Translations under genes and position numbers: made by a program
Assembly (NCBI GenBank): GCA_951406725.2
Contig: OX597827.1
Location: 28,458,001-28,522,000 of the forward strand
Length of the DNA: 64,000 nt
Direction of reading: 5' to 3'
DNA from: Octopus vulgaris
Taxonomy: Eukaryota
Shown here: positions 11,575-61,047 of the stretch, piece by piece
Layout of the letters: each line of letters begins with the position of its first letter
Position numbering within the stretch: position 1 is the first letter of the stretch
The notes under the pieces: model-generated
What the model saw: only the letters and a program-made list of their open reading frames with translations
The model's database searches: none
What the model was told of the DNA's origin: nothing

Positions 11575-11611
11575 AGAAAGACCGGTTTCGCGTGTAGCTT
11601 TTCAAATTTCT
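11575..11611 (-). ncRNA. Minimal hammerhead-like motif, U3-A8 variant, homolog of 6406-6440
   Basis: Reverse complement agaaat-TTGAAAA-gc(tacac)gc-GAAA-ccgg-T-C-tttct; stem I is offset by one nucleotide. Confidence 0.55.
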
Positions 11612-12543
11612 TGTGACGTTATGTTTATGTTGAATAGAATTATCGTTATGTTTATGTTCAGAAGAGTTCTAAATAAGGGAAGGTAGTGAGTGATTTCTTC
11701 CGGTGTAAGAGAGATAATCGCTGAAAAATGTTTTCCTTTCCCTTGGTGTGAATTTCTCTGTATCAGTATGTTCGGATGGTTGAGTCTGGGCTTGTACTTT
11801 TCAATGAAGAATGTTTCCTTGTTTAGTCTAATTTGTGTTGATGATCCGAAAGCACATTGGTAAAATGGAAAGATTAAAAATTGTGGTAGTAGTTGCTTTG
11901 CGCATTTCTCAATGTGCTCACTAAAAGGTATCATTCTATATTCTGGGAATGCAATCTTTTGTCGATGCAGTGTGCATCTACGTCTGAGTGATAGTCCCGT
12001 GGATCCCACGTAGTCTTGGTGGCAGCCCGAGCATTTTATGACATAAATTATGTTTTCAGAGGCACAAGTAAAGTTAGATTTGATCTTGAATTTCTGTCCC
12101 TCTTTAAAGAGGAATTCTGATCCTTCTAGCAGGTTAGGACATGTTGCACAGTTCGATCTACCACATTTTTTTACTTTTGCATCCGTAATTTCAGAAGACA
12201 ATTTTGCCTTTGTGAGAATCTTTTTAAGTGATTTAGGCTGTTTGTAGCTTTTAATGATTTGGTGTATGTTTAGAATTTCCTTTAATTTGGGGTCCTTATG
12301 AAGTATTGGTAAATTCTGGGTGATGATGGTGAAGGCTTCTTTGTTTCTGGGGTTGTATGTAGATATGTAAGGTAGTATTTTCGGGGAAGGTGTGTTGTTG
12401 TGTTGAACTTTTCTTAAAGTTTCTATGTTGATTTCTGTTGCACGTCTGATCCCATCCTCCATGAGTTGAGCTGGGTAATGTCTGTCAATTAGGGTGTTTT
12501 TGAGTTCTTGCAGTCTAAAGTTCCTGGTATTTTGTTCTGACAC
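11602..12543 (-). pseudogene. Penelope RT thumb / Cys linker / GIY-YIG endonuclease ORF fragment
   Basis: 313-aa ORF with IIY..YVG motif; upstream RT lies in disrupted frames. Confidence 0.85.
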
Positions 12544-13689
12544 TATTGTGCATATCCTTCTTGCAAGGTTGAAGGGGATGTTTGTTTTAGTGTGTCTTGG
12601 GTGGCATGAATTAAAGAGAAGGTATTGTTTGGCGTCTGTGGCTTTGTAAAAAATGTCTGTTTCTATTTTAAGGTTAATTTTTTAATTAGTATATCCAAGA
12701 ACGGGAGCTCCTTTTGGTTGTATTCCATTGTGAACTGTATATTTGGGTTTATGCTGTTCAATAGGTTTTTAAATTTTAGGAGTTTATCTGTGTTTTCATT
12801 CCAGAGAATAAAACAATCGTCTAAGAATCGTTTCCAATTCTCTTTTATGTATTGAGAGAGGGGTTTCCAAAGATTGATAAAGATTCCTGGTAAATGATTA
12901 TTTCCATGTATCCCATTGTTAAGTTCGCAATGACTGGTGCTGCCCTTGTACCCATAGCAATTCCGGATTTTTGACGGTAAAATGTATTGTCAAACATGAA
13001 GTGGTTATTGTGTAGGATGAATTCAATTGATTTAGTAATGAATTCTTTACTGATCCTTTTGGTATTTCTTCCGGAAATTGGTCTAACCAGAACTGTATTG
13101 CCTCCAGTCCATAATTATGAGGTATACTGGTATATAAGTTAACTACATCAAATGAAACCAGGATTGATTCTTCCTTGGCTTTTTTTGGAAGGTGGTTTAA
13201 CATATCTAAGTCATCTCTGATATGGCTATCGATATGTTTAAGGAAGGGTTTCAGGAGGATGTCCATAAGTAGATTTAGTCTGTGTGTTTCACAGGTTGGG
13301 CCAGCTACAATGGGTCGTAGTTTTAGGTCCCCCCGGTTAGGTGTGTGTATGTATGTCTTTGGTGATTTTTTAATGGTTTCATTTATAATTTGACTTTTAT
13401 GAATTTTTGGCAGACCATAGAAAGGACTAGGTTTGCATTTAAAGTTTGTTAGGAAGTCAATCTCTTTGGTTGTTAGTTCCTTTTCATGGGTTTTAATTAG
13501 TGAAGATAGAGTTTTCATTATTTTTTGTGGGGTGTAGTTGGTAATTTTTTCATAATGTATGTCGTCATCAAGCAATAAAATTACAAGATTTCTGTAGTAT
13601 GATGTATCCATTATTACAACTGCATTTCCCTTGTCTGCTTCCTTAAATGTTATATCCTCATCATTTTGAAGTTCTATCAGTTCAACTGA

Positions 13690-13975
13690 TGATCGTAAGG
13701 TCATGAATTCAATTCCGGGCGACGCATTGTGTCGTTGACCAAGACACTTTATTTCTCATTGCACCAGTCCACTCAGCTGCCAAGATGAGTTGTACCTGTA
13801 TTTCAAAAGGCCGGCCTTGTCACATTCTGAGTCGCGCTGAATTTCCACGAGAACTACGTTAAAGGTACAAGTGTCTGTGGAGTGCTCAGCCACTTGCACG
13901 TTAATTTCACGAGCAAGCTGTTCCTTTGGTCATGTCAGCTGGGACCTTCGTCGTCGCAACCGACGGAGGGCCAGT
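13690..13975 (+). mobile_element. tRNA-derived SINE lacking its extreme 5' end, abutting the Penelope truncation point
   Basis: gatcgtaaggtcatgaattcaattccggg (B-box-like) followed by the core shared with 2398-2685. Confidence 0.75.
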
Positions 13976-21943: not shown

Positions 21944-22004
21944 GAAGAAGAAGAAGAAGAAGAAGAAGAAGAAGAAGAAGAAGAAGAAGAAGAAGAAGAA
22001 AAAG

Positions 22005-23000
22005 AACCTCTCAATGGCAAATACCGTTATTCTGAATGATAAATGGCAAGAAAAACCTCTCAATGGCAAATACCAAAAGAGAGTGAATAATGCAAATGTT
22101 GACAAAGCCCTGACCCATCAATGGCTAATGGCCTCTGGCTTAGAATCTGAAACAGAGGGGTTTGTCATAGCAACTCAAGATCAATGCCTACCAACAAGGA
22201 ACTACCAGGCCAAAATATTAAAGAACGGCAGTAGCCCAACATGTCGTGTATGTCAACAACAAAATGAAACCATTGATCATGTTGTCTCCAAGTGCAGTCT
22301 TCTTGCGCCTCCAGAGTATCTGAACAGGCATGATAGAGCTGCACAATATATTCACTGGATAATTTGCAGAAGCCTGGACTTGCCCTATAATAAAAGCTAG
22401 TGGGAACACAATCCACCTCCAGTGCTTGAAAATGACCACTTCACACTCCTCTGGAACTTCACCATTCAAACTGACAGAAAGTTAGACGCGAATAGGCCAG
22501 ATATCATATTGAAAGACTTCAGACAAAGAACATGCCTCCTCATTGATATGACTGTCCCAATCGATATAAACGTATCTGTCAAGACCTACCAGGAACTGGG
22601 CCAATATAAAGATCTGGAAATAGAAATCAGCAAAATGTGGAACCTGAAGACTAAAACAATACATGTTGTCAAATGTGCCCTGGGAATGAAAGCGAAAGGA
22701 GCTGATTGCTACCTAACTCAGATACCAGGAAACCCCAAAATGACAGAAATTCAAAAGATAGTGCTCATGGGAACTGCTCATATCCTACGCAAAATACTTT
22801 CTATGTAATCTAAAGTTTTAAAACAAACATAATTTTCGTATGGTTTTTTTGGCATTCACTAGTACAACAATAAGTACAAAACAAATATATGGCGCCCTAG
22901 GCATAACACCAACATGAACTTCCAACTTGTTGTCTCTTGAGGTCTCTGGGTGAGACTTGGAGCCAGCTTGTGCAAATGTAAAGCAAAAGTCAAACATAGA
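22005..23000 (+). mobile_element. R4/Dong-clade LINE 3' fragment, subfamily A
   Basis: CRVCQQQNETIDHVVSKC (CCHC), RHD, ANRPDII..IDMTVP (RLE domain); flanked by (GAA)n/(TAA)n. Confidence 0.9.
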
Positions 23001-23086
23001 ATAATAATAATAATAATAATAATAACAACAACAACAACAACAATAATAATAATAATAACAACAACAACAACAGCAACAACAAAAAC

Positions 23087-23147
<61 letters not shown>

Positions 23148-23148
23148 T

Positions 23149-23676
23149 GTACAAGGCAGTGGCTCCTATGGCTTCTGATCTTAACTGATTGGAAGTGTTA
23201 TCATGTACATTGTTTTGTCTTGGTATAAAAGATGGGCTACAGCAAATATTCTGCTCAATACCACAGATTTGCTTGTCAGCTGTTTGACTTTAACCAGTTG
23301 AGCATGTCCCTTAGTGGCTGACGATATGTGCATCTCTGATTACATGCAGAAGTAGTGGGGGAGCATCATAGCCATGTGTTGAGAGGGATTGTTTGGGGTT
23401 TGAATAATTCACCTCTGGAAACATGTGTGTTTCTTTCAACATCCTTAAACAACCCTTATTCAGGAACTTTTGAGCGGGATGGGCTACTCAACCTGAAGAA
23501 AATTCTAACTGGGCCCCACCTCTGTTTATCTTGATATGAGATCACCATGTCGTGCACAAATGGTTGTGATGCATGTGCCTGGTGTACCCTTATCAGACGG
23601 GTAGTCATGATGGGTATATTGGGCTTCGTATATTTTACCCCAATGTCACTTTTTGGCATGAACTGCTCCCTCACTC
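23149..23676 (+). mobile_element. Copy 2 of the non-coding TAA-tailed element
   Basis: Colinear with 26777-27326; (TAA)n on both sides. Confidence 0.82.
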
Positions 23677-23714
<38 letters not shown>

Positions 23715-23723
23715 AAATAATAA

Positions 23724-23958
23724 TGTGCACTTGCAAGTTTCAACACTTTACTGCAAACACGGCTGAAAACCATTGGGGCAAGTGTTCTGAAGGTACAACA
23801 TCTACAAAAACCAGCATTGCTTGGAACTGCAAGAATTCTTCGCAGGGTTTTCGAAACATGACCAATAAAGAATTGTCACCTTAGTCTGCTGTCTGTGGAC
23901 AGCTGACGCTTTCCATCATACCCAGCAAAATTAGCTGTGAGTTTTCACATATCGATAG
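23724..23958 (+). mobile_element. Short R4/Dong-like 3' fragment, subfamily B
   Basis: Translates QHLQKPALLGTARILRRVFET*, matching the C-terminal pattern of the neighbouring RLE ORFs. Confidence 0.7.
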
Positions 23959-23964
23959 TAATAA

Positions 23965-24340
23965 TCAGATGCGATTCAGTGCGACCGTGAGATAGAGAAC
24001 AGGAAGCCAGACATAGTCTTAATTGAGAAAGAAACCAAACTATGCTGGATCATAGATATAGCATGCCCAGCTGACAAAAAGGTATGCGATAAGGAAGAAA
24101 GAACAGTTGTGGTCGACGAAAAAGGTGGTAGTAGTACTAATAATTGTCGGAGCTCTGTGAAGAGTGGGTAAAAATCTCGAGAAGTACGTTGAAGAAATAG
24201 GGGCTGCAATATGGGTGGAGCACTTGCAGAAAACAGCACTGCTTGGAAACGCTCGAAAAAGGAGAAGTGTTTCCTTAGTTCACTGGTTGTGAACAGCTGA
24301 CACTGTAATACATCTCCAGCGTTAGAAGCTGTGCAAAATC
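23965..24340 (+). mobile_element. Short R4/Dong-like 3' fragment, subfamily C
   Basis: IQCDREIENRKPDIVLIEKETKLCWIIDIACPAD and LQKTALLG; followed by (TAA)n. Confidence 0.78.
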
Positions 24341-24430
<90 letters not shown>

Positions 24431-24434
<4 letters not shown>

Positions 24435-26727
24435 GACACAAAAAACCCAAAGAATTACCGGCCAATAACATGTAAAAGACACAAAAAACCCAAAGAATTA
24501 CCGGCCAATAACATGTCTCAACACCACCTACAAAATCCTCACATCCATAATAACGGAGAGAATGTACGCTTTCCTTGAACAAAATTCTATCCTTCCACAA
24601 GCTCAAAAAGGTTGTAAAAGAAACTCTTATGGGTGCAAAGACCAATTGCTCATAAACAGAATGATTGTAGAGAATTGCCGGAGCAAAAACAAAAACCTGA
24701 GTATGGCATGGATAGACTACAGGAAAGCATATGACAGTGTCCCACATAAATGGATACTCAAGGCCCTTGAGATATACAAGATCTCTCCTGTCGTCTCAAA
24801 ATTCTTAGAGAATAGCATGACCATGTGGAACACACGTCTCTTTTTAAGCCATAGTAATGGGATGAGCCAGTCCAACAGCATCAACATCAAACGAGGCATC
24901 TTTCAAGGTGACTCCCTCTCTCCATTACTTTTTTGCATGGCACTGATCCCACTCTCAAACGAATTGGATAGTACTAGATATGGGTACAAAGTTTTTAGTA
25001 AATTAATAAACCATCTTTTCTATATGGACGACCTAAAGCTGTTTGCCAGGAATGACCAAGAGCTAGAAGGGCTGCTAACAACTGTTAAAGAGTTTAGCAA
25101 TGATATCGGAATGGATTTTGGCCTTGATAAGTGTGCTAAAGCAACTTTTGTAAGAGGCAAGCTCAAGCAAACAGCTTCTGTTAAATTAGATATTGACACT
25201 ACCATCAAGGAACTTGACCCACAGGAAAGTTACAAATACCTAGGAATCAACGAAGGAGATGGTATACATCATGCTACTATGAAGGAAAAAATAAGAAAGG
25301 AATACTATAGGAGAATAAGGCTTGTACTGAAGACTGAGCTCAACTCCAAAAATTGCATTGAGGCCATTAACACCCTGGCCCTTCCAGTAGTCCAGTACAG
25401 TTTTAATATCATTAACTGGAACCTTACGGAACTCCAACGCTTAGACAGGAAGACAAGAAAGTTACTGACATCTAGGAGCATGCACCACCCTAAGGCAGAT
25501 GTAGACCGCTTGTACCTACCTAGAAGCAGCGGGGGAGAGGAATGATGCAATTAGAGCTGTGCTATAAGACCTCTACTGTAGGAATGAACAGGTACCTATC
25601 TAGTACAAAGGACTGGATGCTGCGACTTGTGCGCGAACACGAAAGCAACAAAAAGCTGCATTCTATTGTCAAGGAAGCTTATAAGTTCGAAAGGGAACTA
25701 GACATTAACCTTGAATCAGATGAAGAGCCGGAAACCACTGCTACCAAGCAAGCAAAGCGAATCAAGCAGACTGCAAAAAAGAACGGGCAGAATCAAATTG
25801 AGAGGCGGTGGAGCCAGAAGCCCCTGCATGGACAATATATTCTCCGAAGCCAAAATGCTGATGTAGACCAAGCAACAACCCATCAGTGGCTGAAGAGCTC
25901 TGGATTGAAAGCAGAGACTGAAGGTTTCATAATGGCAGCACAAGATCAAAGCTTGTTTACCAGAAATTACCAGGCTAACGTTCTCCGAAACGGTACTGAC
26001 CCTAAATGCAGATTCTGCGACACATTTGACGAAACGATAGACCATCTCGTTTCGGGATGTCCTGTGCTGACACCAAACGAATACAAAAATCGCCACGATA
26101 GGGTAGGACAGTATATACATTGGAAGATATGTAAACACTACAAATCCGACATTCCTGCTAACTGGTACGAACACCATCCTCAGCCAGTTGTTGAAGGTAA
26201 AGATGTCACCATCCTCTGGGATTTTCCAGTCAACACTGACAGAACGATCAAGGCTAATCGACCAGACATAATTGTTAAGGACAGGGAAGAAAATACCTGC
26301 AGACTAATAGAAGTAAGCGTCCCCACTGATAAAAATGTATCTGTCAAGGAATTTGACAAACTTAGTAAATATAAGGACCTGGAAATCGAAATACAGAGGA
26401 TGTGGAATCTTAAAACAAAAACTGTTCCTGTTATTGTAGGTGCCCTAGGTATGATAAAAAAGGGATGTCAGAAACACCTAGACAATATCCCTGGAAAACC
26501 ATGTCTCAAGGAAATCCAAAAGATTGTGCTAACAAGTACTGCCCACATCCTTAGAAAAACCCTATCAATGTAAATGTCTGTGTTTGCATTACATGGAGAT
26601 ATATCTCTACTTCCCCTCCCCAAGCTTTCAGCTGTATTTCAACAACTCTTAACCTTCACTTGCCCTAGGGCGCTGGGTGTGCCCCGGCAGGTGATTGCAT
26701 CAAACATGCAGATTAAAAGTAAATGAC
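24431..26727 (+). mobile_element. 5'-truncated R4/Dong-clade LINE, subfamily D copy 1 (RT + CCHC + RLE, one frameshift near 25545)
   Basis: RGIFQGDSLSPLLF, HLFYMDDLKLF, CRFCDTFDETIDHLVSGC, RHD, NRPDII; (TAA)n on both sides. Confidence 0.95.
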
Positions 26728-31970: not shown

Positions 31971-34900
31971 GTTCTATGTTTGACTTTTGCTTTATCTTTG
32001 TACAAGTTGGCTCCAAGTCTCACCCAGAGACCTCAAGTGACAACAGGTTGGAAGTTCGCGTTGTTGTTATGCCCAGTGTGCCATATATTTCGGGTCTTTT
32101 TTCGGTGTTGTACTAGTGAATGTCTAATAAATAACTTTTTTTTAAAAGTTTGATTTAAACCTTGAGATTACATATAGAGTATTTTGCGTAGGATATGAGC
32201 AGTTCCCATGAGCACTATCTTTTGAATTTCTGCCATTTTGGGGTTTCCTGGTATCTGAGTTAGGTAGCAATCAGCCCCTTTCGCTATCATTCCCAGGGCA
32301 CCTATGACAGCAGGTATTGTTTTAGTCTTCAGGTTCCACATTTTGCTGATTTCTATTTCCAGATCTTTATATTTGCCCAGTTTCTGGTAGGTCTTGACAG
32401 ATACGTTTATATCGATTGGGACAGTCATATCAATGAGGAGGCATGTTCTTTTAATATGATGTCTGGCCTGTTTGCATCTATCTTTCTGTCAGTTTGAATG
32501 GTGAAGTTCCAGAGGAGTGAGATGTGGTCATTTTCAAGCACTGGAGGTGGATTGTGTTGCCACCAGATTTTTTTCATGGGGCAAATCCAGGTTTTTGCAA
32601 ATTATCCAGTGAATATATTGTGCAGCTCTATCATGCCTGTTCAGATACTCCACAGGCGCAAGAAGACTGCACTTGGAGACAACATGATCAATGGTTTCTT
32701 TCATTTTGTTGTCGATATACACGACATGTTGGGCTACTGCCGTTCTTTAATACGTTGGCCTGGTAGTTTCTTGTTGGTAGGCATTGATCTTGAGCTGCTA
32801 TGATAGACCCTTCTGTTTCAGATTTTAAGCCAGAGGCCATTAGTCATTGATGGGTTAGGGCTTTGTCAATATCCGCATTATTCGCTCTGTTTGGGTATTT
32901 GCCATAGAGAGGTTTTTCTTGCCATTTATTATTAGAGAATATCTAAGGCCGCATTTTTGGCACGAGTTTTCATGCGCTTAGCTTTTTCTGTGCTTGTTTC
33001 TTTTATGACAATCTCTAATTCCGAAATTTGTTGTATTCGGAATTCACTAAGATGTTCCTTTGCCTGTTTTGTTACTGAGAATGATGCTTTCTTGTTTTCA
33101 TGTTTTGAGACAAGTTTTAACATCCAGTCCTCAGACTTTTTCAGGTAGGTGTCTAGGCCAATTGTAGCAATCTTCATTGGTATTGCCAGTTGTAAAAGTC
33201 CACGACCTCCATCTTTTCTTGGCAGATAAAGTCGTTCTGTATCTGCCTTAGGGTGGTGCATTCTATGCATTGTCAACAGTTTTCGTATTTTTCTGTCAAG
33301 CTGACATATTTCAGTAATTGACCAGTTAACGATATTGAAACTGTAAGTCACGACTGGTATTGCTAATGCATTGATCGCTTCGATCCTGTTTCTCGCATTC
33401 AGCTCTGTCTTGAGTATTGCTCTCACTCTTCAATAACATTCTCTCCTGATCCTTTCCTTCATCCTTTAAATCATCCATGTAAATGAGATGATTTATATTT
33501 TTATCAAACATTTTATACCCGTACAGCGCGTCATTGAGCAGTATTAAGGCTAAACAAAAGATGAGTGGTGACAGTGAGTCACACTGGAAAATGCCACATG
33601 AAAATTTTAAATCACCAGCATTTAGGGTTTCAGTGTCACTGTTCAAAGTTAGTGTGGTTCTCAATGATCTCATACTTACAGTCAAAATATTTCGCAGAGT
33701 AGGTGCTATCTAATACATTTCCAGGCATTTCTTAATCCAGCTATGTGGTAGGCTATCAAAAGCCTTTTTATAGTCTATCCAGGCTATTGATAAGTTTTTG
33801 TGTCGTTTGTGACAATCTTCTAAGATCATCTTATTGATGAGTAGTTGATCTTTACAACCGTATGATCCACGTTTACATCTTTTCTGTTCATTAGGGAACA
33901 TGCTGCTGTCTGTTAAAAATCTAAAAGTATATTCCGTCAGGACAGATGTTAGCGTTTTATACATTGTTGTTAAGCAGGTTATGGGTCTATAGTTTTTGGG
34001 TTCATTTGTTTCTTCACTTTTTAGAAGCAGGAATGTTAACCCATTAACTGGCCAAGAAGGCACCCTACTAGGGTGTTGCAAAACATCATTGTACAGTTCT
34101 GTTAGCAGTTCATGGCTCTCTGAGAAGGCATTCAGCCAGAAGTTAGGAATTTTATCCTTTCCTGGAGACTTCCATTTGCTTCACCTCCTGAGAGCAGATC
34201 TTATATCTTCTACCTTGACACCCTCCCACTTTTGCTCTTCTAAGGAGTCCAGTTCTGTAGATATTCTATCAATCCAGGGTTCCTTTTCGTTGTGTTTTTT
34301 CTTCTGCTCAAATTTTATTCCAAAATCCCTGCACTTCTTCTTTTGATGGTACAGACCTTACAGTAACTGCTGTTTTTCCTATCTTCCTGTAAAAATTTTT
34401 GGGGTTATTTTTGAACATGTTGTTGTCCTTGAAAAATCTAACACGCTTTTCATACCTCGCCATGCGAGCAGATTTGGCAGATACCTTTTGTTTGATGGTT
34501 TCTATCGTGACATCAATATCAAGTATAGTTTTCATATTATATTTTTTCATTAATTTTGGGGTTTTTGTAGGTTTGGTAGTCTTGTGAACCTTAAGGTTTT
34601 TCAAATAATCAATGTCAGATCTAAATAGTTTAATTTGTTGTTGCAAACGCTCTTGCCAAGAAGGCTTTTTGTGGGAATGTTGCCGTTTTCTAATCTTTAC
34701 ACCACATAGGATCGTTGAGATTTTCGCGGATGCATAGTATACGTGGTTGAGATTTGTGATATCAACATCATTAGCTGAAATTATATCCTTAAGTGCAAGC
34801 CAGACTTTACCAATTATTTTCATGTTTTGTTTAGAGTTGCGGATTTTAGGGAGTGCATCGCGTTCATCCATGCTGGTTTCTTTAATCTTCAGCCATTCAA

Positions 34901-35899
34901 TCATGATTTGATTTTTTTAGCTCATGTAGTTCTGTTGTATCCATATTTGTGTGACTTTCTTTATCTATTTGATGTTCATCTGTCTTAGTGTTTATGATTG
35001 GTTCAGGGAGCATTTCACTTTGCCTATCACTTATACTAACTCGTTCAATCCTTACTTCGTTTATATCAGCGCTGGGCTGGTCTATAATTATTTCCTCTGT
35101 ATTATCTTCTCTAGCTGCAGCTTCGTTCATTTTATCCGTTACTGCCCGTCTAACTTGATCAATCTCTACTTCAGTCAGTAATTTTTTTTTATAATGTTTC
35201 TTCTGACGTTGGCAAGTTTGTTACTGTCTATGTAGGGTCTTGCTTCAGGGTGTTTCTGTCTCCAGTTTAAGTATATTTGTGCAGTGTTAGATTTATCTGT
35301 GGGGAAATATATGACATGGTAGAAGGCCGCAAGAACTTCTTTATTATCTTCCCTAGACCAATTTTCGTTCTTTTTTTTTTTTAATTTGGTGACGAGCATG
35401 GATGGCCATCTGTTGGAATATTCCGGTTGTGGGGTACGTCCAGCTCCTGTGTATTGGGAAGATTTGATCCAGTAGCTGATTTTTCAATCAGAATTTGGTT
35501 CAATTTTAGGGTACGTGGTCTTTTGTAATCCGCGCGGTGACCATTGCGGTTTGTAGTTTGTTTGTTGACATTGACGCATGACGAGATTCCACTCTTACAT
35601 TAGGAGATGGATCTGTCAGTTTAGGGTTCTCTACACGTAAGCATTGCTCGTAGCGCAGCTTCTTAAGGTAGCAGATCTGTATTCGTCTGTATTTTTTTTG
35701 TTGATAGTTTTATCTCTGAACATATTTTTTCCCCTTTTCTTTTCCTTCTCTTCCTTTTTTCCTCTCTCTTTTTTCTTTCTCCTTCTTCCCCTTTTTCCTT
35801 CCTTCTTTTCCCTTCCTCTTTTAAACTTATAAAAGGCTCACTCTGCCTGTATTAGTTCGAAAAAATGAGAATAAAATACGGGAAAAAAGGGGTCTGTCA

Positions 35900-35900
<1 letters not shown>
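31971..35900 (-). mobile_element. Probably full-length but decayed R4/Dong-clade LINE, subfamily A (~3.9 kb)
   Basis: Serial minus-strand ORF fragments from the N-terminus (WSREDNKEVLAAFYH) through RT (NYRPITCL, HLIYMDDLK) to RLE; same C-terminus as 22005-23000; (TTA)n at both ends. Confidence 0.9.
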
Positions 35901-35959
<59 letters not shown>

Positions 35960-38044
35960 GTCATTTACTTTTAATCTGCATGTTTGATGCAATCACTTGC
36001 CGGGACACACCCAGCGCCCTAGGGCAAGTGAATGTTAAGAGTTGTTGAAATATAGCTGAAAGCTTGGGGAGGGGAAGTAGAGAAATATCTCCATGTAATA
36101 CAAACACAAACATTTACATTGATAGGGTTTTTCTAAGGATGTGGGCAGTACTTGTTAGCACAATCTTTTGGATTTCCTTGAGACATGGTTCTCCAGGGAT
36201 ATTGTCTAGGTGTTTCTGACATCCCTTTTTTATCATACCTAGGGTACCTACGATAACAGGAACAGTTTTTTTTTAAAGATTCCACATCTTTTGTATTTCG
36301 ATTTCCAGGTCCTTATATTTACTAAGTTTGTCAAATTCCTTTACAGATACATTTTTATCAGTGGGGACGCTTACCTCTATTAGTCTGCAGGTATTTTCTT
36401 CCCTGTCTTTAACAATTAAGTCTGGTCGATTAGCCTTGATCGTTCTGTCAGTGTTGACTGGAAAATCCCAGAGGATGGTGACATCCTTACCTTCAACAAC
36501 TGGCTGAGGATGGTGTTCATACCAGTTAGCAGGAGTGTCGAATTTGTAGTATTTACATATCTTCCAATGTATATACTGTCCTACCCTATCGTGGCGATTT
36601 TTGTATTCGTTTGGTGTCAGCACAGGACATCCCGAAACGAGATGGTCTATCGTTTCGTCAAATGTGTCGCAGAATATGCATTTAGGGTCAGTACCGTTTC
36701 GGAGAACGTTAGCCTGGTAATTTCTGGTAAACAAGCTTTGATCTTGTGCTGCCATTATGAAGCCTTCAGTCTCTGCTTTCAATCCAGAACTCTTCAGCCA
36801 CTGATGGGTTGTTGCTTGGTCTACATCAGCATTTTGGCATCGGAGAATATATTGTCCATGCAGGGTCTTCTGGCTCCACCGCCTCTCAATTTGATTCTGC
36901 CCGTTCTTTTTTGCAGTCTGCTTGATTCGCTTTGCTTGCTTGGTAGCAGTGGTTTCCGGCTCTTCATCTGATTCAAGGTTAATGTCTAGTTCTCTTTCGA
37001 ACTTATAGGCTTCCTTGACAATAGAATGCAGCTTTTTGCTGCTTTCGTGTTCGCACACAAGTCGCAGCATCCAGTCCTTTGTACTAGATAGGTACCTGTT
37101 CATTCCAACAGTAGAGGTCTTATAGCACAGCTCTAATTGCATCATTCCTCTCCCCCCGCTGCTTCTAGGTAGGTACAGGCGGTCTACATCTGCCTTAGGG
37201 TGGTGCATGGATGTCAGTAATTTTCTTGTCTTCCTGTCCAAGCGTTGGAGTTCCGTAAGGTTCCAGTTAATAAAACTGTACTGGACTACTGGAAGGGCCA
37301 GGGTGTTAATGGCCTCAATGCAATTTTTGGAGTTGAGTTCAGTCTTCAGTACAAACCTTATTCTCTTATAGTATTCCTTTCTTATTTTTTCCTTCATAGT
37401 AGCATGATGTATACCATCTCCTTCGTTGATTCCTAGGTATTTGTAACTTTCTTGTGGGTCAAGTTCCTTGATGGTAGTGTCAATATCTAATTTAACAGAA
37501 GCTGTTTGCCTGAGCTTGCCTCTTACAAAAGTTGCTTTAGCACACTTATCAAGGCCAAAATCCATTCCGATATCATTGCTAAACTCTTTAACAGTTGTTA
37601 GCAGCCCTTCTAGCTCTTGGTCATTCCTGGCAAACAGCTTTATGTCGTCCATATAGAAAAGGTGGTTTATTAACTTACTAAAAACTTTGTACCCATATCT
37701 GGTACTATCCAATTCGTTTGAGAGTGGGATCAGTGCCATGCAAAAAAGTAATGGAGAGAGGGACTCACCTTGAAAGATGCCTCGTTTGATGTTAATGCTG
37801 TTGGACTGGCTCATCCCATTACTATGGCTTAGAAAGAGACGTGTGTCCCATATGGTCATGCTATTCTCTAAGAATTTTGAGACGACAGGAGAGATCTTGT
37901 ATATCTCAAGGGCCTTGAGTATCCATTTATGTGGGACACTGTCATACGCTTTCCTGTAGTCTATCCATGCCATACTCAGGTTTTTGTTTTTGCTCCGGCA
38001 ATTCTCTACAATCATTCTGTTTATGAGCAATTGGTCTTTGCACC
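35960..38044 (-). mobile_element. 5'-truncated R4/Dong-clade LINE, subfamily D copy 2
   Basis: Near-identical reverse complement of 24632-26727. Confidence 0.95.
36273..38030 (-). CDS. Retrotransposon RT-CCHC-RLE polyprotein fragment (585 aa, no true N-terminus)
   Basis: Uninterrupted ORF with HLFYMDDIKLF, CIFC..HLVSGC, RHD and RPDL motifs. Confidence 0.8.
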   Translation of the reverse strand: MLINRMIVENCRSKNKNLSMAWIDYRKAYDSVPHKWILKALEIYKISPVVSKFLENSMTIWDTRLFLSHSNGMSQSNSINIKRGIFQGESLSPLLFCMALIPLSNELDSTRYGYKVFSKLINHLFYMDDIKLFARNDQELEGLLTTVKEFSNDIGMDFGLDKCAKATFVRGKLRQTASVKLDIDTTIKELDPQESYKYLGINEGDGIHHATMKEKIRKEYYKRIRFVLKTELNSKNCIEAINTLALPVVQYSFINWNLTELQRLDRKTRKLLTSMHHPKADVDRLYLPRSSGGRGMMQLELCYKTSTVGMNRYLSSTKDWMLRLVCEHESSKKLHSIVKEAYKFERELDINLESDEEPETTATKQAKRIKQTAKKNGQNQIERRWSQKTLHGQYILRCQNADVDQATTHQWLKSSGLKAETEGFIMAAQDQSLFTRNYQANVLRNGTDPKCIFCDTFDETIDHLVSGCPVLTPNEYKNRHDRVGQYIHWKICKYYKFDTPANWYEHHPQPVVEGKDVTILWDFPVNTDRTIKANRPDLIVKDREENTCRLIEVSVPTDKNVSVKEFDKLSKYKDLEIEIQKMWNL

Positions 38045-38186
38045 AATGCCTTGTGAGTGGATTTGGTAGACGGAAACTGAAAGAAGCCTATCGTATATAT
38101 GTATGTGTGTGTGTGTGTTTGTGTGCCTGTGTTTGTCCCCCTAGCATTGCTTGACAACCGATGCTGGTGTGTTTACGTCCCCGTCA
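38042..38186 (+). mobile_element. Internal SINE fragment fused to the 5' truncation of Dong copy D2
   Basis: Near-exact reverse complement of 43950-44102. Confidence 0.85.
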
Positions 38187-38520
38187 TATTGCTTTATGTG
38201 TAGTCACAGCAGTATCTTATTACTGTTATTTTTGTTTTTGTCATTATCACCATCACCACCACTAAGCTGTAGATATTTTGAGGGAAATTCAAATTACTCA
38301 CAGAAAACCGTAGATCTTCCAGTTTTTTACAGTTGTTTTTTTTCAGTTGTCCTGCTGGGTTTGCTACTGCCAGTTCAGAGCATCGAAAAAGTACGTCCAG
38401 CCTCTGTCACCTCCAGCCGCCTTCTTCTTCTTCTTCTTCTTCTTCTTCTTCTTCTTCTTCTTCTTCTTCTTCTTCTTCTTCTTCTTCTTCTTCTTCTTCT
38501 TCTTCTTCTTCTTCTTCTGC

Positions 38521-38577
<57 letters not shown>

Positions 38578-38582
<5 letters not shown>

Positions 38583-38715
38583 CTAACTGCCTGGAAACGA
38601 ACTCGGATTCATCGGATTAGTAACCCATGCTCTTAACCACTACGCCATATGCCTGTGGCCTAGTGCGGGGTACTAACCCCAACATTCCGAGTTCGTTTCC
38701 AGGCAGTTACCTAAA

Positions 38716-38716
<1 letters not shown>
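38578..38716. mobile_element. Head-to-head pair of very short tRNA-like SINEs
   Basis: 24-bp perfect inverted repeat 38584-38607 / 38686-38709; each half has an A-box-like (tggcgtagtgg / tggcctagtg) and B-box-like (gagttcgtttcc) motif plus a trinucleotide tail. Confidence 0.7.
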
Positions 38717-38768
<52 letters not shown>

Positions 38769-38791
38769 ATAATAATAATAATAATAATAAT

Positions 38792-41700
38792 AAGATACAA
38801 GAAACAAGATACAAGATACAAGAAACAAGATACAAGAAACAAGATACAAGAAATTCTATTGTACCTGTTAAAGATAGTCAGGAAAACGAAAAAACAACAG
38901 TAACTGAAGATCTCGCATTTGCTGAAGAACACAGAGAGTCTATGGCAGAAATGAGGCAGAAAATCCTGAATACGCTTGAAGTTGTAAGACATACAAGTAT
39001 GAATGATAGAGAACCACTTCATAAACTCTCAAATACAAACCAAAATAAAGAACAAATCCAAATTGGCAACTATGTAACAAATGAAATAATACGAGAATTA
39101 AAACCTGATTTTACTGAGTTAAATGAAATTATTTACGCTTCTGCTAGGGCAATTGAAACCAGCTGTATGCCCCCGAAAAAACAAAGAAAACAAAACCTGG
39201 GAAGAAATCAAACCTGGAGAAGTAAAATTGAAAAAGAGATTGAATTTATGAGAGGGGAAATATCAATATTAAATGAACTAATATGTGGAAATGATGTAAG
39301 ATCCAGAACAGGAAGAAAGATGAAGAGAAAATTTGGATCCTCACCAAGAGAAGAACTGATATCAATAAAAGAAACGCTGAAACAAAAAGTCCAAGCAAAA
39401 GCCCAAAGAATACGAAGATTTGAGAAGAGAAACAAGTTTTACAAGCAAAATAAGCTGTTCACATCCAATGCCAAAAAATTCTACAGAGAAATAAGGAAGG
39501 AGAAAGTAACCGTTAAAGACCCCCTCCCATGGAAGAAGTTCAAAACTTTTGGAAAAGGATTTGGAGTGACAAGAAGACGTACAACATAAATGCAGACTGG
39601 ATTAGACAAACTGAAGGATCCTACCAAAATTTACAACAACAAGCATGGGAAGACATCACAATAGGAGACCTAAGAAAGGCACTCACGAAGGCCCATAATT
39701 GGAAATCCCCCGGTAAAGATAGGGTGCCGAATTTCTGGCTCGCATCGCTCCCATGGGCACACGGTAAGCTAGTTCAGCTGCTCAATGGAATTATGAGAGA
39801 CCCAAAGAAAACACCTTAATGGTTAGCAAAGAATAACGAAACCAACCTTCCAAATAACTATCGGCCTATAACCTGTCTATCCACCACGTATAAAATCCTA
39901 ACATCTATCCTGGCGGAGAAAACATATGCATTCATGGAGAAGAACGATATTTTCCCCATTGAACAAAAAGGGTGCCGCCGAGGCTCTTACGGATGCAAAG
40001 ATCAACTGCTGATCAATCGTATGATCCTTGAGAACTGTCACAACAAGCGCAGAAATCTCAGCACCGCATGGATTGACTATAAAAAGGCCTTCGACAGTAT
40101 ACCGCATCCATGGATCTTGAGATCGCTGGACATCTTCAAAATTTCCCCTGTGATTTCAAACTTCCTGAAGCACAATATGTCGTTGTGGAATACGAATCTC
40201 CAATTATACCACTCTAATGGAGTACTTGACTCAGAAAATATAAACATCAACTGTGGAATTTTTCAAGGTGACTCACTTTCACCTTTAATATTCTGCATAG
40301 CCCTAATATCCCTTACAAGTGAATTAAACAGAACAGGGTATGGGTATAAAATTGCCAATAAAAAAATAAGCCATCTATTTTATATGGATGACTTAAAACT
40401 TTATGGTAAAGACAATAATGAACTTGAAGGCCTATTGCACACCGTGAAAGCATTCAGCGATGACATCGGGATGGAGTTTGGACTTGAGAAGTGTGCCAAG
40501 GCCACTTTCCAGAAAGGGAAAGTGAAGACCACAAATTCAGTCGTGTTAGATGTTGACACAGTCATAAGAGAGCTTGAGCAAGAACAAACATACAAATATT
40601 TAGGGATAAATGAAGGCTCTGGTATTCAGCATGCAAGCATGAAAGAGAAAATCAGGAAGGAATGTTATAGGAGAGTTCGTGCAGTCCTGAAATCTGAACT
40701 AAATGCACGTAACAAGGTGTTAGCTATAAATTCCTTAGCAGTTCCAGTTGTTACTTATAGCTACAATGTGTTGAACTGGAATATGAGTGAAGTAAAGAAT
40801 ATAGATAGGAAATACGCAAGCTGCTGAGTTGTAATAGGATGCACCACCCAAAGGCAGACGTAGATCGCCTTTACCTTCCCAGAGCCCAAGGAGGTCGAGG
40901 CCTGATCCAGTTTGAACTAGCTTACAAAACAACCACAATTGGACTGGCCAAATATCTCGAAATATCGAATTACTGGATGCTAAAGCTCGTGGAAAATCAC
41001 GAGAGACGAAAGAAGCTTCATTCTATCATAAAGGAAAGCAAAAAATTTGCTATTGATCTCGTGCAGGATACCCAAACTGAACAACCCGAGGGAAGTACGG
41101 CAACTATTGTTGCAAAGAAGGTGAAAATGATGGCAATGAAAAAAGCGCACGAGCAATTGGCTGATAGGTGGGAGGAGAAACCTCTGCACGGCAAATATGT
41201 GACCCGCAGCAAACAAGCTGATGTTGACCAGAAGCAAACCCATCAGTGGCTACGGAGCTCAGGGCTAAAAGCAGAGAGCGAAGGTTTCATCCTGGCTGCT
41301 CAAGATCAAAGCCTATTAACCCGGAACTACCAGGCCAATGTGATGAAAAATGGAGCAGACCCAAAAAAGCCGATTCTGCAACGACATGATTGAAACAGTG
41401 GACCACCTAATCTCTGGATGTAAAGTCTTAGCACCAGTGGAGTATAAATTAAGACATGACAGAGTTGGCCAATATCTCCACTGGCTAATAAGTTGGCATT
41501 ACAATATCAAAACTGCCGACAAGTGGTATAATCACCACCCTGAGGCTGTAACTGAAGGACAAAATGTAACCATTCTGTGGGACTTTCCAGTACATACAGA
41601 CCGACCCATCAAGGCCAATAAACCAGATATTGTTGTGAAAGACCAAAACAATAAAGTTTGCTTATTGATCGACATGAGCATCCCCTGTGATCATAATATC

Positions 41701-42112
41701 TCAGCGAAAGAGTTTGACAAGCTCAGAAAATATAAAGACCTACTCATTGAAATTGAGAAAATGTGGCATCTCAAGGCGGTTACAATACCAGTGATCGTAG
41801 GAGCACTAGGAATGATCAAGAAGTGAACCGAAAATTATATGAGAATGATCCCTGGCTTACCATCCCTGCAAGAAGTGCAATAGATTGTCTTAACTGGTAC
41901 ATCACACGTATTGAGAAGAGCATTGTCGATGTGAGAACTGTTGCTGCTCATGTATTTTAATTTAACTTTAAAATAAATAAATAAATAAATAATAAACGAA
42001 CTACTGAGTTTGGTTTAATGGCTTACCAATGTATACTATGAGTTTCTTTGCCCTAGGAGTCGGGAAGACACTCGGCAAGAAATGGAAGCAAATTTGAAAG
42101 AAGAAAAAAAAA
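38792..42112 (+). mobile_element. Long 5'-truncated R4/Dong-clade LINE, subfamily F, frameshifted
   Basis: ORFs 38627-39589, 39934-40827 (GIFQGDSLSPL, HLFYMDDLKL), 40839-41393 and 41350-41826 (RHD, NKPDIV..IDMSIP); (TAA)n on both sides. Confidence 0.93.
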
Positions 42113-56747: not shown

Positions 56748-57074
56748 AGGCTGGTGCAAAAGTTTGGACTCATAGGCAATTTATTATATAAAACTTTAAG
56801 GTTTACAATAAGTGTTCAAACTGATTTCCACCTTCTTCCAAACACTTCCTTACTCGGGGGAGACATGATCTTTGCACATTTCTGACCATAGAGTTATTAC
56901 CTCTTATGGTTTCAATTATGCTTATTCTTTGTATGCCTAGAACTTATACTATCGGTCTCTCTTGCCGAACTCTAAGTTACGGGGATGTAAACACACAAAC
57001 ATCAGTGATGTTGGGGAACAAACACAGACACACAAACATACACATATACGTATATACATACATACATACATACA

Positions 57075-57108
<34 letters not shown>

Positions 57109-57179
57109 GAAATGGCAAGACAACAAGAGAATGAAAGAAACGTCGATATTATGTAAATAGAGGACTTTATCTGTAAATA

Positions 57180-57387
57180 TAATATGTGACACTTATTCGG
57201 TAGCCATGATAAAACTCCGAGTTTCGGATGTCGGGGCGGAAACCCACGCCGGCATCTCTTCAGTTATCGGGCATTTCATAGCTTTTTTCCGATGGTCCGA
57301 TAACTGAAGAGATGCCGGCGTGGGTTTCCGCTCCGACATCCGAAACTCGGAGTTTTATCATGGCTACCGAATAATTGCTACATATAT
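57180..57387. mobile_element. Short fold-back element, 78-bp arms with one mismatch
   Basis: 57193-57270 versus 57297-57374. Confidence 0.9.
57299..57359 (+). ncRNA. Type I hammerhead motif, canonical core; mirror copy on the minus strand at 57208-57268
   Basis: gataa-CTGAAGA-gatgccgg(..)ccgacatc-c-GAAA-ctcggag-T-T-ttatc. Confidence 0.7.
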
Positions 57388-57396
57388 TTATACACA

Positions 57397-57471
<75 letters not shown>

Positions 57472-60149: not shown

Positions 60150-61047
60150 TATGAAATTTAGAGGACTGACCACTAAAAAATGGACAACCTATATGCTAGA
60201 TATAGACGTGAAATTCGCCATTTTCTACGAGGAATGTGTTCTTAAGGAAAAAAAATTCAGCAAAAAAAGAAACAAAGTGTAAAAATAAGCAAGACAAATG
60301 AAAATATACGAAATAAAAAAACCATTACCTATGTACTAGTCCGGAAAATAGCGATTTTGACGTCTATATCTAGCATATCGGCTGTCCCTTTTTTTAGTGT
60401 TCAGTCCTCTAAATTTTGTATGAAAAAAATTTTAATCTTCGGATTTTTTAAAATATGCTAGGCCACTGGGTTTAATTCATTAATATCAATTTCTGCCCTT
60501 ATTTAATTTTAAATTTAAAAAAATGTTCTCTAGCCGGTAAATTGACTGCTGTAGTTTATTAACTGCAAAGTAATTTCCGATTTCAGTGCGCCAAGGTGAA
60601 GGCATTTGAAAGATACACATAAATATAATTTGTTGAACTTTATACATGCTGGATTTCGGTCGAGCGTTCTGTGTCTAGTTCTGGAAATAATGTTTTATAA
60701 ACGACAGACAATGCTGATGATCTTGCAGATGTTTGCGTATCCATATACGTAAATATTAACAAATGAAAATAATTAGTACATAATTAATCGTTTTTTTATT
60801 TCGTATATTTTCATTTGTCTTGCTTATTTTTACACTTTGATTTTTTGCTGAATTTTTTTCTTGAGGACACATTCTTCGTGGAAAATGGTGATTTTGACGT
60901 CTATATCTAGCATATAGGCTGTCCATTTTTTTAGTGGTCAGTCCTCTAAATTTTGTATGAAAACATTTAATCTTCGAATTTTTTAAAATATGCTAGGCCA
61001 CTGGTTTTAATTGATTAATATCAATTTCTACCCTTATTATTTAATTT

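What the first reader, a model, noticed from the sequence alone, without database searches (positions are those of the whole stretch)
57180..57387. Near-perfect 200-bp hairpin that is little more than two opposed canonical hammerheads
Seen: 78-bp arms with one mismatch, of which 61 bp is a type I hammerhead (gataa/ttatc stem I, CUGAAGA, long stem II, GAAA, near-palindromic actcggagt). A transcript from either strand would carry one ribozyme paired with its own antisense. Inference: a minimal ribozyme cassette that is self-inhibited or dsRNA-forming. Ribozymes in both polarities recall viroid-like RNAs, but an inverted Penelope terminal repeat is the simpler explanation.
Basis: partly seen in the sequence, partly recalled or inferred. 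Interest (0 to 1): 0.7.

Follow-up and report, generated by a model that had tools for sequence, protein, structure and literature searches.

The report
Head-to-head Penelope retrotransposon ends
This hairpin is an ordinary scar of a Penelope-type jumping gene: two short copies of the element's ribozyme-bearing end lie head to head in a microsatellite, like hundreds of others in this genome, and pairing of the two arms is predicted to keep the ribozymes from folding.

Summary
The hairpin is real: 78-bp arms with one mismatch, and a complete type I hammerhead motif on each strand. It is not a free-standing cassette. Longer copies join this arm to a reverse-transcriptase/GIY-YIG frame with the motifs of Hydra-clade Penelope-like elements (PLEs).

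The family has at least 6,000 arms. Of 81 unselected loci, 49 are head-to-head pairs and 47 of those have one tailed and one untailed arm. Junctions differ at every locus, and arms decay neutrally, with no sign of selection on pairing or catalytic core. Inverted truncated copies with a one-sided tail are the published PLE insertion structure.

Pairs are often little more than two ribozymes because 5' ends pile up 5-34 nt upstream of the core, likely where the RNA starts (inferred). Ends do not pile up at the predicted cut site. Cleavage was not tested. This scan already reported the pattern on other DNA, including this genome. Verdict: ordinary retrotransposon by-product, with modest mechanistic value.

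The parts
57051..57107 (.). Left flank: (TACA)n/(TA)n microsatellite, the target site
   Evidence: Sequence; most sibling copies end in (TA)n at both 3' ends
57108..57167 (-). PLE 'tail': about 60 nt present on this arm only; in full-length copies it continues towards the long reading frame
   Evidence: Arm plus tail is 158/165 identical to the pLTR-to-ORF junction of L091; tailed arms end at ruler position 161, untailed at about 91-98
57168..57272 (-). Left arm: 5'-truncated pLTR copy starting 9 nt upstream of the ribozyme core
57208..57268 (-). Type I hammerhead motif; predicted cut between 57213 and 57212 (GUU)
   Evidence: cleavage untested
57272..57296 (+). Inversion junction (1 exactly shared base at 57272; imperfect 4-nt GG[G/T]C overlap) and the 'loop', which is the 5' leader of the right arm, starting at the Inr-like TCATTT about 32 nt upstream of the core
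   Evidence: the Inr-like label is recalled from the Drosophila consensus and comes from no call
57272..57391 (+). Right arm: 5'-truncated pLTR copy without tail
57299..57359 (+). Type I hammerhead motif: core 57304-57310, GAAA 57342-57345, predicted cut between 57354 and 57355; near-palindromic stem III that can self-dimerise (-13.3 kcal/mol)
   Evidence: cleavage untested
57312..57374 (+). 20-codon small frame starting at the ATG in stem II; a 20-codon frame also sits here in L091 and L131
   Evidence: Sequence
57392..57471 (.). Right flank: (TA)/(CA)n/(TA)n microsatellite

Best explanation
It is a head-to-head insertion of two 5'-truncated ends of a Penelope-like retrotransposon with Hydra-clade protein motifs, lying in a microsatellite, and it was likely made in one event by two reverse-transcription starts. 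Shown: each arm is the element's pLTR region with its hammerhead motif; one arm has the tail and one does not; junctions differ between loci; copies decay neutrally. Inferred steps: (1) the GIY-YIG endonuclease nicks both strands of self-complementary (TA)n; (2) one 3' end primes cDNA at the distal start site (tail) and the other at the proximal site about 65 nt upstream; (3) both cDNAs copy uncut RNA through the ribozyme and usually stop at or shortly before the RNA's 5' end, about 33 nt upstream of the core; (4) the two cDNA ends are joined and filled in. The product is a dead insertion. If transcribed through, it would form a long dsRNA hairpin with the ribozyme unfolded.
For: Parent element: L097 = endonuclease frame + 3' UTR + arm + tail + (TA)n. 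L091 = arm + decayed RT + endonuclease. L131 = pLTR, 717-aa frame, pLTR, with an upstream partial tandem and an inverted untailed copy. Hydra motifs RWK, DKT, CxCX5C, CxxC, CxH present, CCHH absent (vs PMC8557442 section 11). Copy number: 3,283 and 6,000 exact hits of two short words, controls 1 and 1. Architecture: 49 of 81 unselected loci are inverted pairs, 47 of 49 tailed + untailed (binomial p = 4e-12 against 50%); long pairs L131, L133, L134, L137, L138, L139 follow the same rule. One source per pair: arms agree at subfamily-diagnostic sites in 212 of 231 comparisons over 41 pairs, shuffled mean 53%, max 69%. Neither arm is a subset of the other: the untailed arm reaches further 5' in 31 of 47 pairs, the tailed in 7, tie in 9. 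5' ends: 62 of 111 core-bearing arms stop 5-34 nt upstream of the core, 12.1% per 5-nt bin against 4.1% further up (p = 4e-6), peak 14 of 62 at -30..-34. Literature: inverted truncated copy and one-sided tail (PMC8557442 passages); two internal RT starts equal the tail, both strands cut and extended, ribozyme cleavage not needed (PMC11167929 main text).
Against: The two-primer step is inferred; PMC3846280 (passages) proposes self-priming on an antisense template instead. A fold-back followed by asymmetric central deletion could also leave non-nested arms. The 5'-end zone was drawn after seeing the data, bins are not independent, 30 of the loci pooled were picked by likeness to the window arm, and the U-rich tract there could cause stops without any transcription start. 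No RNA 5' ends were seen (table 6: none). Clade assignment therefore rests on motifs and a by-eye comparison with Hydra-1_Obim, not on a tree. The tail (about 65 nt) is longer than the published 30-40 bp. 32 of 81 loci showed no partner arm; at least one of these (L222) has a short partner that my filter missed, and flanks were only 1.5-3 kb. The window copy has 0 rare variants in 156 paired bases against 9 in 96 outside.
Confidence: 0.93

Rival explanations
1. Same element, other mechanism: one cDNA or an antisense RNA folds back and self-primes to make a palindrome, which later loses its centre asymmetrically.
For: Self-priming is proposed in PMC3846280 (passages). The BLAST ends of the two arms overlap by 1-13 nt in 24 of 49 pairs. 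Arms share subfamily alleles.
Against: A plain fold-back of the tailed cDNA needs the untailed arm to be nested in it, yet it reaches further 5' in 31 of 47 pairs. Random later deletion would not favour the untailed arm nor concentrate ends just upstream of the ribozyme.
Confidence: 0.2
2. A non-autonomous fold-back mini-element (MITE-like or retrozyme-like) that replicates as a whole 285-bp hairpin.
For: Hundreds of similar short hairpins: 154 exact two-arm matches; all 40 scored hits of the hairpin query are full length.
Against: Loops differ in every listed copy. Arm lengths are continuous up to ORF-bearing inversions. No tandem monomer repeat at this locus. Rare variants are mostly unshared between arms.
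Confidence: 0.03
3. This one copy has been co-opted as a functional dsRNA hairpin (small-RNA source, editing substrate or self-inhibited ribozyme switch).
For: One mismatch in 78 bp against a median of 5.5 in 28 unselected sibling pairs, of which 1 has at most one mismatch. 0 rare variants in 156 paired bases against 9 in 96 outside. Family reads from both strands occur in an RNA run of another, coded organism.
Against: No family-wide constraint. The clean stretch was delimited after the fact. No read or contig laid spans this junction. No orthologous locus could be examined.
Confidence: 0.04
4. Viroid-like circular RNA with ribozymes in both polarities, or an assembly fold-back artefact.
For: A hammerhead motif on each strand; no spanning read at this locus.
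Against: The two ribozymes are one motif and its mirror image, so they quench each other. The element is tied to a retrotransposon frame and (TA)n targets. Arms differ from each other and overlap non-nested, which a chimeric read would not give.
Confidence: 0.01

Closest known systems
Insertion units of endonuclease-bearing Penelope-like elements: inverted 5'-truncated copy plus one-sided tail (Craig et al. 2021, PMC8557442, passages, section 11 and supplement look-ups; Arkhipova et al. 2013, PMC3846280, passages; Schostak et al. 2008, PMC2377424, passages)
   Same: Head-to-head inversion, strong 5' truncation, tail on one end, hammerhead in the pLTR, partial tandems in long copies
   Different: Here both copies are cut back to the ribozyme-bearing end; tail about 65 nt rather than 30-40 bp; no target duplication can be read in the microsatellite
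Hydra clade of C-terminal EN+ PLEs, including Hydra-1_Obim (PMC8557442 section 11 and supplement rows)
   Same: Under 3 kb, single frame of about 710 aa, RWK, DKT, CxCX5C, CxxC/CxH, no CCHH, (TA)n targets, hammerhead with a CUGAAGA core, long stem II and palindromic stem III
   Different: A different family: protein and ribozyme stems differ from Hydra-1_Obim by eye; that entry is noted as 'no pLTR', whereas pLTRs are plain here; the intact-frame sister subfamily carries a U4C core
Poseidon of Anolis (Frangieh et al. 2024, PMC11167929, main text read)
   Same: Two internal RT start sites bounding the tail; ATG at the start of stem II; AT-rich targets; uncut RNA as template
   Different: In Poseidon the stem II ATG opens the main frame; here it opens a 20-codon frame and the main frame starts about 230 nt later
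Metazoan type I / PLE hammerheads that work as dimers (Cervera and de la Pena 2014, PMC4209133, passages); animal non-LTR retrozymes (10.64898/2026.07.22.740005, abstract and outline only)
   Same: Short palindromic helix III suited to dimer pairing
   Different: Dimer activity needs two copies on the same strand; here they are on opposite strands, and there is no tandem monomer repeat

Membership tests
EN+ Penelope-like element | Arm linked to a single frame with RT and C-terminal GIY-YIG endonuclease | tested here: met
   L091, L097, L131-L134; YKDD and IIYEA...YVG; Pfam GIY-YIG only E = 0.012, below cut-off; no Pfam hit for the full frame
EN+ Penelope-like element | pLTRs formed by partial tandem, with an inverted 5'-truncated copy | tested here: met
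   L131, L134; 49 of 81 loci inverted
EN+ Penelope-like element | Optional tail on one end | tested here: met
   47 of 49 pairs; length about 65 nt, longer than published
EN+ Penelope-like element | Hammerhead motif in the pLTR | tested here: met
   127 of 194 arms keep an intact core
Hydra clade | RWK, DKT, CxCX5C linker, CxxC and CxH around E and N, no CCHH | tested here: met
   L131 frame, against PMC8557442 section 11
Hydra clade | Under 3 kb; (TA)n insertion | tested here: met
   L131 unit about 2.4 kb from pLTR to pLTR; 3' flanks mostly (TA)n
Hydra clade | Phylogenetic placement with reference Hydra RTs | not tested
   Reference proteins were seen only as supplement text; no tree built
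Active hammerhead ribozyme | Self-cleavage | not testable with these tools
   The hammerhead fold is not the lowest-energy fold even alone (-12.8 vs -16.7 kcal/mol); no pile-up of genomic 5' ends at the cut site; no sharp RNA ends
Non-LTR retrozyme | Tandem direct monomers, each with one ribozyme | tested here: not met
   One inverted pair, no direct repeat of the unit at the locus
MITE / fold-back DNA transposon | Uniform unit with fixed interior and symmetric terminal repeats | tested here: not met
   Variable junctions and asymmetric ends
Viroid-like RNA | Circular RNA with distinct, foldable ribozymes in both polarities | tested here: not met
   Mirror-image motif, +94 to +99 kcal/mol to fold; circular RNA itself not testable here

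The most novel reading that the evidence does not exclude
These stubs record a coupled two-primer mechanism. One PLE complex, perhaps a dimer, primes both nicked strands of (TA)n, always one at the distal and one at the proximal start site, on uncut RNA. The copies run off the RNA's 5' end at an internal start about 33 nt upstream of the ribozyme. Most PLE insertions would then be run-off copies of the transcript leader, and inverted pLTRs would be the default product rather than a rearrangement.
Probability: 0.4. Interest if true: 0.5.

Novelty: new member of a known kind. Interest (0 to 1): 0.2.

Why it matters
As a sequence feature it is ordinary, and it warns that paired opposite-strand hammerheads in animal genomes can be retrotransposon scars rather than viroid-like RNAs. 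Its residual value is mechanistic. How PLEs make inverted copies and tails is unresolved in the papers read here, and this family gives thousands of countable products: a near-strict tail/no-tail rule, non-nested arms and stops just upstream of the ribozyme. Intact-frame sister copies exist for an in vitro test. Hundreds of such hairpins could also feed dsRNA pathways if transcribed, which is untested.

Tried and rejected
Rfam scan of the window: no hit. Pfam and PDB searches of the full frame: nothing. The Penelope remnant at window 11602-13755 as parent: tblastn gave only two short incidental hits among 100 loci, and its end carries no such arm.

In vivo cleavage recorded in genomic 5' ends: 7 of 137 BLAST ends fell at the cut site, which looked suggestive. 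A dedicated search (216 matches, first 100 listed) showed no pile-up. My hand tally found about 7 of about 68 interpretable truncations at the three cut-site positions of 15; about 32 rows were set aside as indels or internal deletions.

Selection on pairing or on the core: none family-wide. Arm-to-arm homogenisation: arms were closer to each other than to the nearest other locus in only 4 of 63 pairs.

A-to-I editing: A>G and T>C differences in RNA run X24 cannot be told from family variants of another organism; not claimed. Expression: no RNA holder listed for this locus. A read lay on a full-length copy gave no result, so RNA ends on the full element remain unseen.

Literature: 'Penelope' + 'twin priming' returned 3 papers whose listings are not about PLE mechanism (listing only). 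'octopus' + 'Penelope' + 'genome' + 'inverted repeats' returned 4 listed papers. Repbase and Dfam were not available, so the family may already be catalogued. Supplements of the bioRxiv retrozyme preprint were not seen and could list it.

Full report
Observation. The hairpin is there. Positions 57193-57270 pair with 57297-57374 over 78 bp with one mismatch, and the region folds at -175.6 kcal/mol, z = -25. Each strand carries one 61-nt type I hammerhead motif: 5-bp stem I, CUGAAGA, bulged stem II, GAAA, 3-bp stem III and a GUU cut triplet. Rfam does not detect it at gathering scores. The flanks are microsatellites.

It is a repeat family and larger than stated. In the 2.8-Gb own genome the hairpin query had 2,714 first-look candidates; all 40 scored were full-length hairpins. 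Two short words give 3,283 and 6,000 exact hits, controls 1 and 1. A strict two-arm pattern gives 154 loci, control 0. Sibling loci show that one arm carries about 65 further bases before (TA)n. In the window this tail runs to 57108, so the insertion is 57108-57391.

Parent element. L097 has an endonuclease frame, a 3' UTR, the arm, the tail and (TA)n. L091 has the arm followed by a decayed RT and endonuclease; the window's tailed arm matches it at 158 of 165 bases. A sister subfamily has intact 717-aa frames. L131 shows pLTR, frame, pLTR with tail, preceded by a partial tandem and an inverted untailed copy. The protein has RWK, DKT, YKDD, CxCX5C, GIY-YIG-like IIYEA...YVG, CxxC and CxH, and no CCHH. 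These are the listed features of the Hydra clade (PMC8557442 section 11). Its supplement holds a related octopus family, Hydra-1_Obim, compared by eye only. Against a firm label: no Pfam hit for the full frame, GIY-YIG below cut-off for the fragment, no PDB hit, unnamed homologues, no tree. The genome looks octopus-like; that is my inference.

Architecture. I took the first 100 exact hits of a word shared by tailed and untailed arms, which gave 81 loci. 49 are head-to-head pairs, 47 of them tailed + untailed, 1 untailed + untailed, 1 unclear. 32 showed no partner; this overstates solos, since L222 has a short partner my filter missed and flanks were 1.5-3 kb. One tailed + tailed pair (L055) appeared in another sample. 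Both arms hold the whole ribozyme in 13 pairs, and in 8 both stop within 45 nt of it. So about a tenth of loci look like the window copy, which scales to several hundred. Junctions differ everywhere.

How the pairs arise. Arms of a pair agree at seven subfamily sites in 212 of 231 comparisons (41 pairs not picked by likeness to the window; shuffled mean 53%), so both come from one source. The untailed arm reaches further 5' in 31 of 47 pairs, the tailed in 7, tie in 9, so neither arm is a simple fold-back copy of the other. In vitro, Poseidon cuts and extends both strands, starts at two internal sites that bound the tail, and does not need ribozyme cleavage (PMC11167929 main text). I infer two primers, one per start site, with the cDNA ends joined. 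Self-priming followed by central deletion (PMC3846280 passages) remains possible.

Why so short. 62 stop 5-34 nt upstream of the core, 12.1% per 5-nt bin against 4.1% further up (p = 4e-6), with a peak of 14 of 62 at -30..-34. The window's right arm starts at -32, on a TCATTT that resembles an initiator (consensus recalled, from no call). Drosophila Penelope has a TATA-less internal promoter in its pLTR (PMC2377424 passages). Run-off at the RNA's 5' end is the likeliest cause, but the zone was chosen after the fact, 30 pooled loci were picked by likeness, and the U-rich tract could stop the enzyme on its own. There is no pile-up at the predicted cut site (hand tally), unlike the claim of note e1-9820663 for another genome.

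Function of the hairpin. Alone, the hammerhead fold is 3.9 kcal/mol above the best fold, and stem III can self-dimerise at -13.3 kcal/mol, as described for metazoan hammerheads that act as dimers (PMC4209133 passages). In the hairpin it costs +99 or +94 kcal/mol. Rare variants occur at 2.8% in paired arms and 3.1% in solo arms (p = 0.49), and at 3.1% in the core against 3.8% outside (p = 0.39). Arms differ by a median 6.7%. The family shows no sign of selection. The window copy is cleaner than most: one mismatch against a median of 5.5 in 28 unselected pairs, and 0 rare variants in 156 paired bases against 9 in 96 outside. I read this as chance but cannot exclude local constraint. An RNA run of another coded organism has 319 family reads on both strands, few at the junction and no sharp ends; nothing laid spans this junction.

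Comparison and verdict. It works like, and is, a PLE inverted insertion with one-sided tail (PMC8557442 passages). It fails the tests for retrozyme, MITE and viroid-like RNA. The family seems distinct from Hydra-1_Obim, but Repbase and Dfam were not checked. This scan has reported the same pattern, including the short/long rule, elsewhere in this genome; those notes are leads, not support. Novelty: new member of a known kind. Interest 0.2.

Noticed in passing
L131-L134, L136-L138 (e.g. L131:3960-6110, -): A sister subfamily with intact 717-aa frames carries CCGA(A/U)GA, a U4C core change, in all 14 cores matched in 7 of 8 loci searched. PMC3088659 (one passage) says U4C lowers activity in vitro but is tolerated in a viroid. 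The apparently younger lineage may have a weakened ribozyme.
   Followed up: partly
window 49551 (+), 20707 (+), 42222 (+), 31815 (-): Four more CUGANGA...GAAA hammerhead-like motifs of other families; 42222 and 31815 resemble each other.
   Followed up: partly
window 11602-13755 (-): Broken Penelope-like RT + GIY-YIG element of a different family, ending in (TA)n at about 11440.
   Followed up: partly
window 21945-26573, 32932-41826: Several decayed non-LTR retrotransposon copies (RVT_1, zf-RVT), next to (AAT)n/(AAC)n runs, on both strands.
   Followed up: partly
window 60175-61000: Nested repeat: 79-nt inverted arms (60175-60253 / 60853-60931) and a roughly 120-nt direct repeat 537 bp apart; looks like a rearranged small DNA transposon.
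   Followed up: no
pLTR, about 55-60 nt upstream of the core: A second, smaller cluster of 5' ends (6 of 39 at risk), possibly a second start site.
   Followed up: no
L103-L105, L109, L112, L114, L116 (contig C17): Seven near-identical ORF-bearing copies on one contig, likely carried by segmental duplication rather than separate insertions.
   Followed up: no
window 57193-57374: The paired core has 0 rare variants in 156 bases while the rest of this copy has 9 in 96; unexplained, probably chance.
   Followed up: partly
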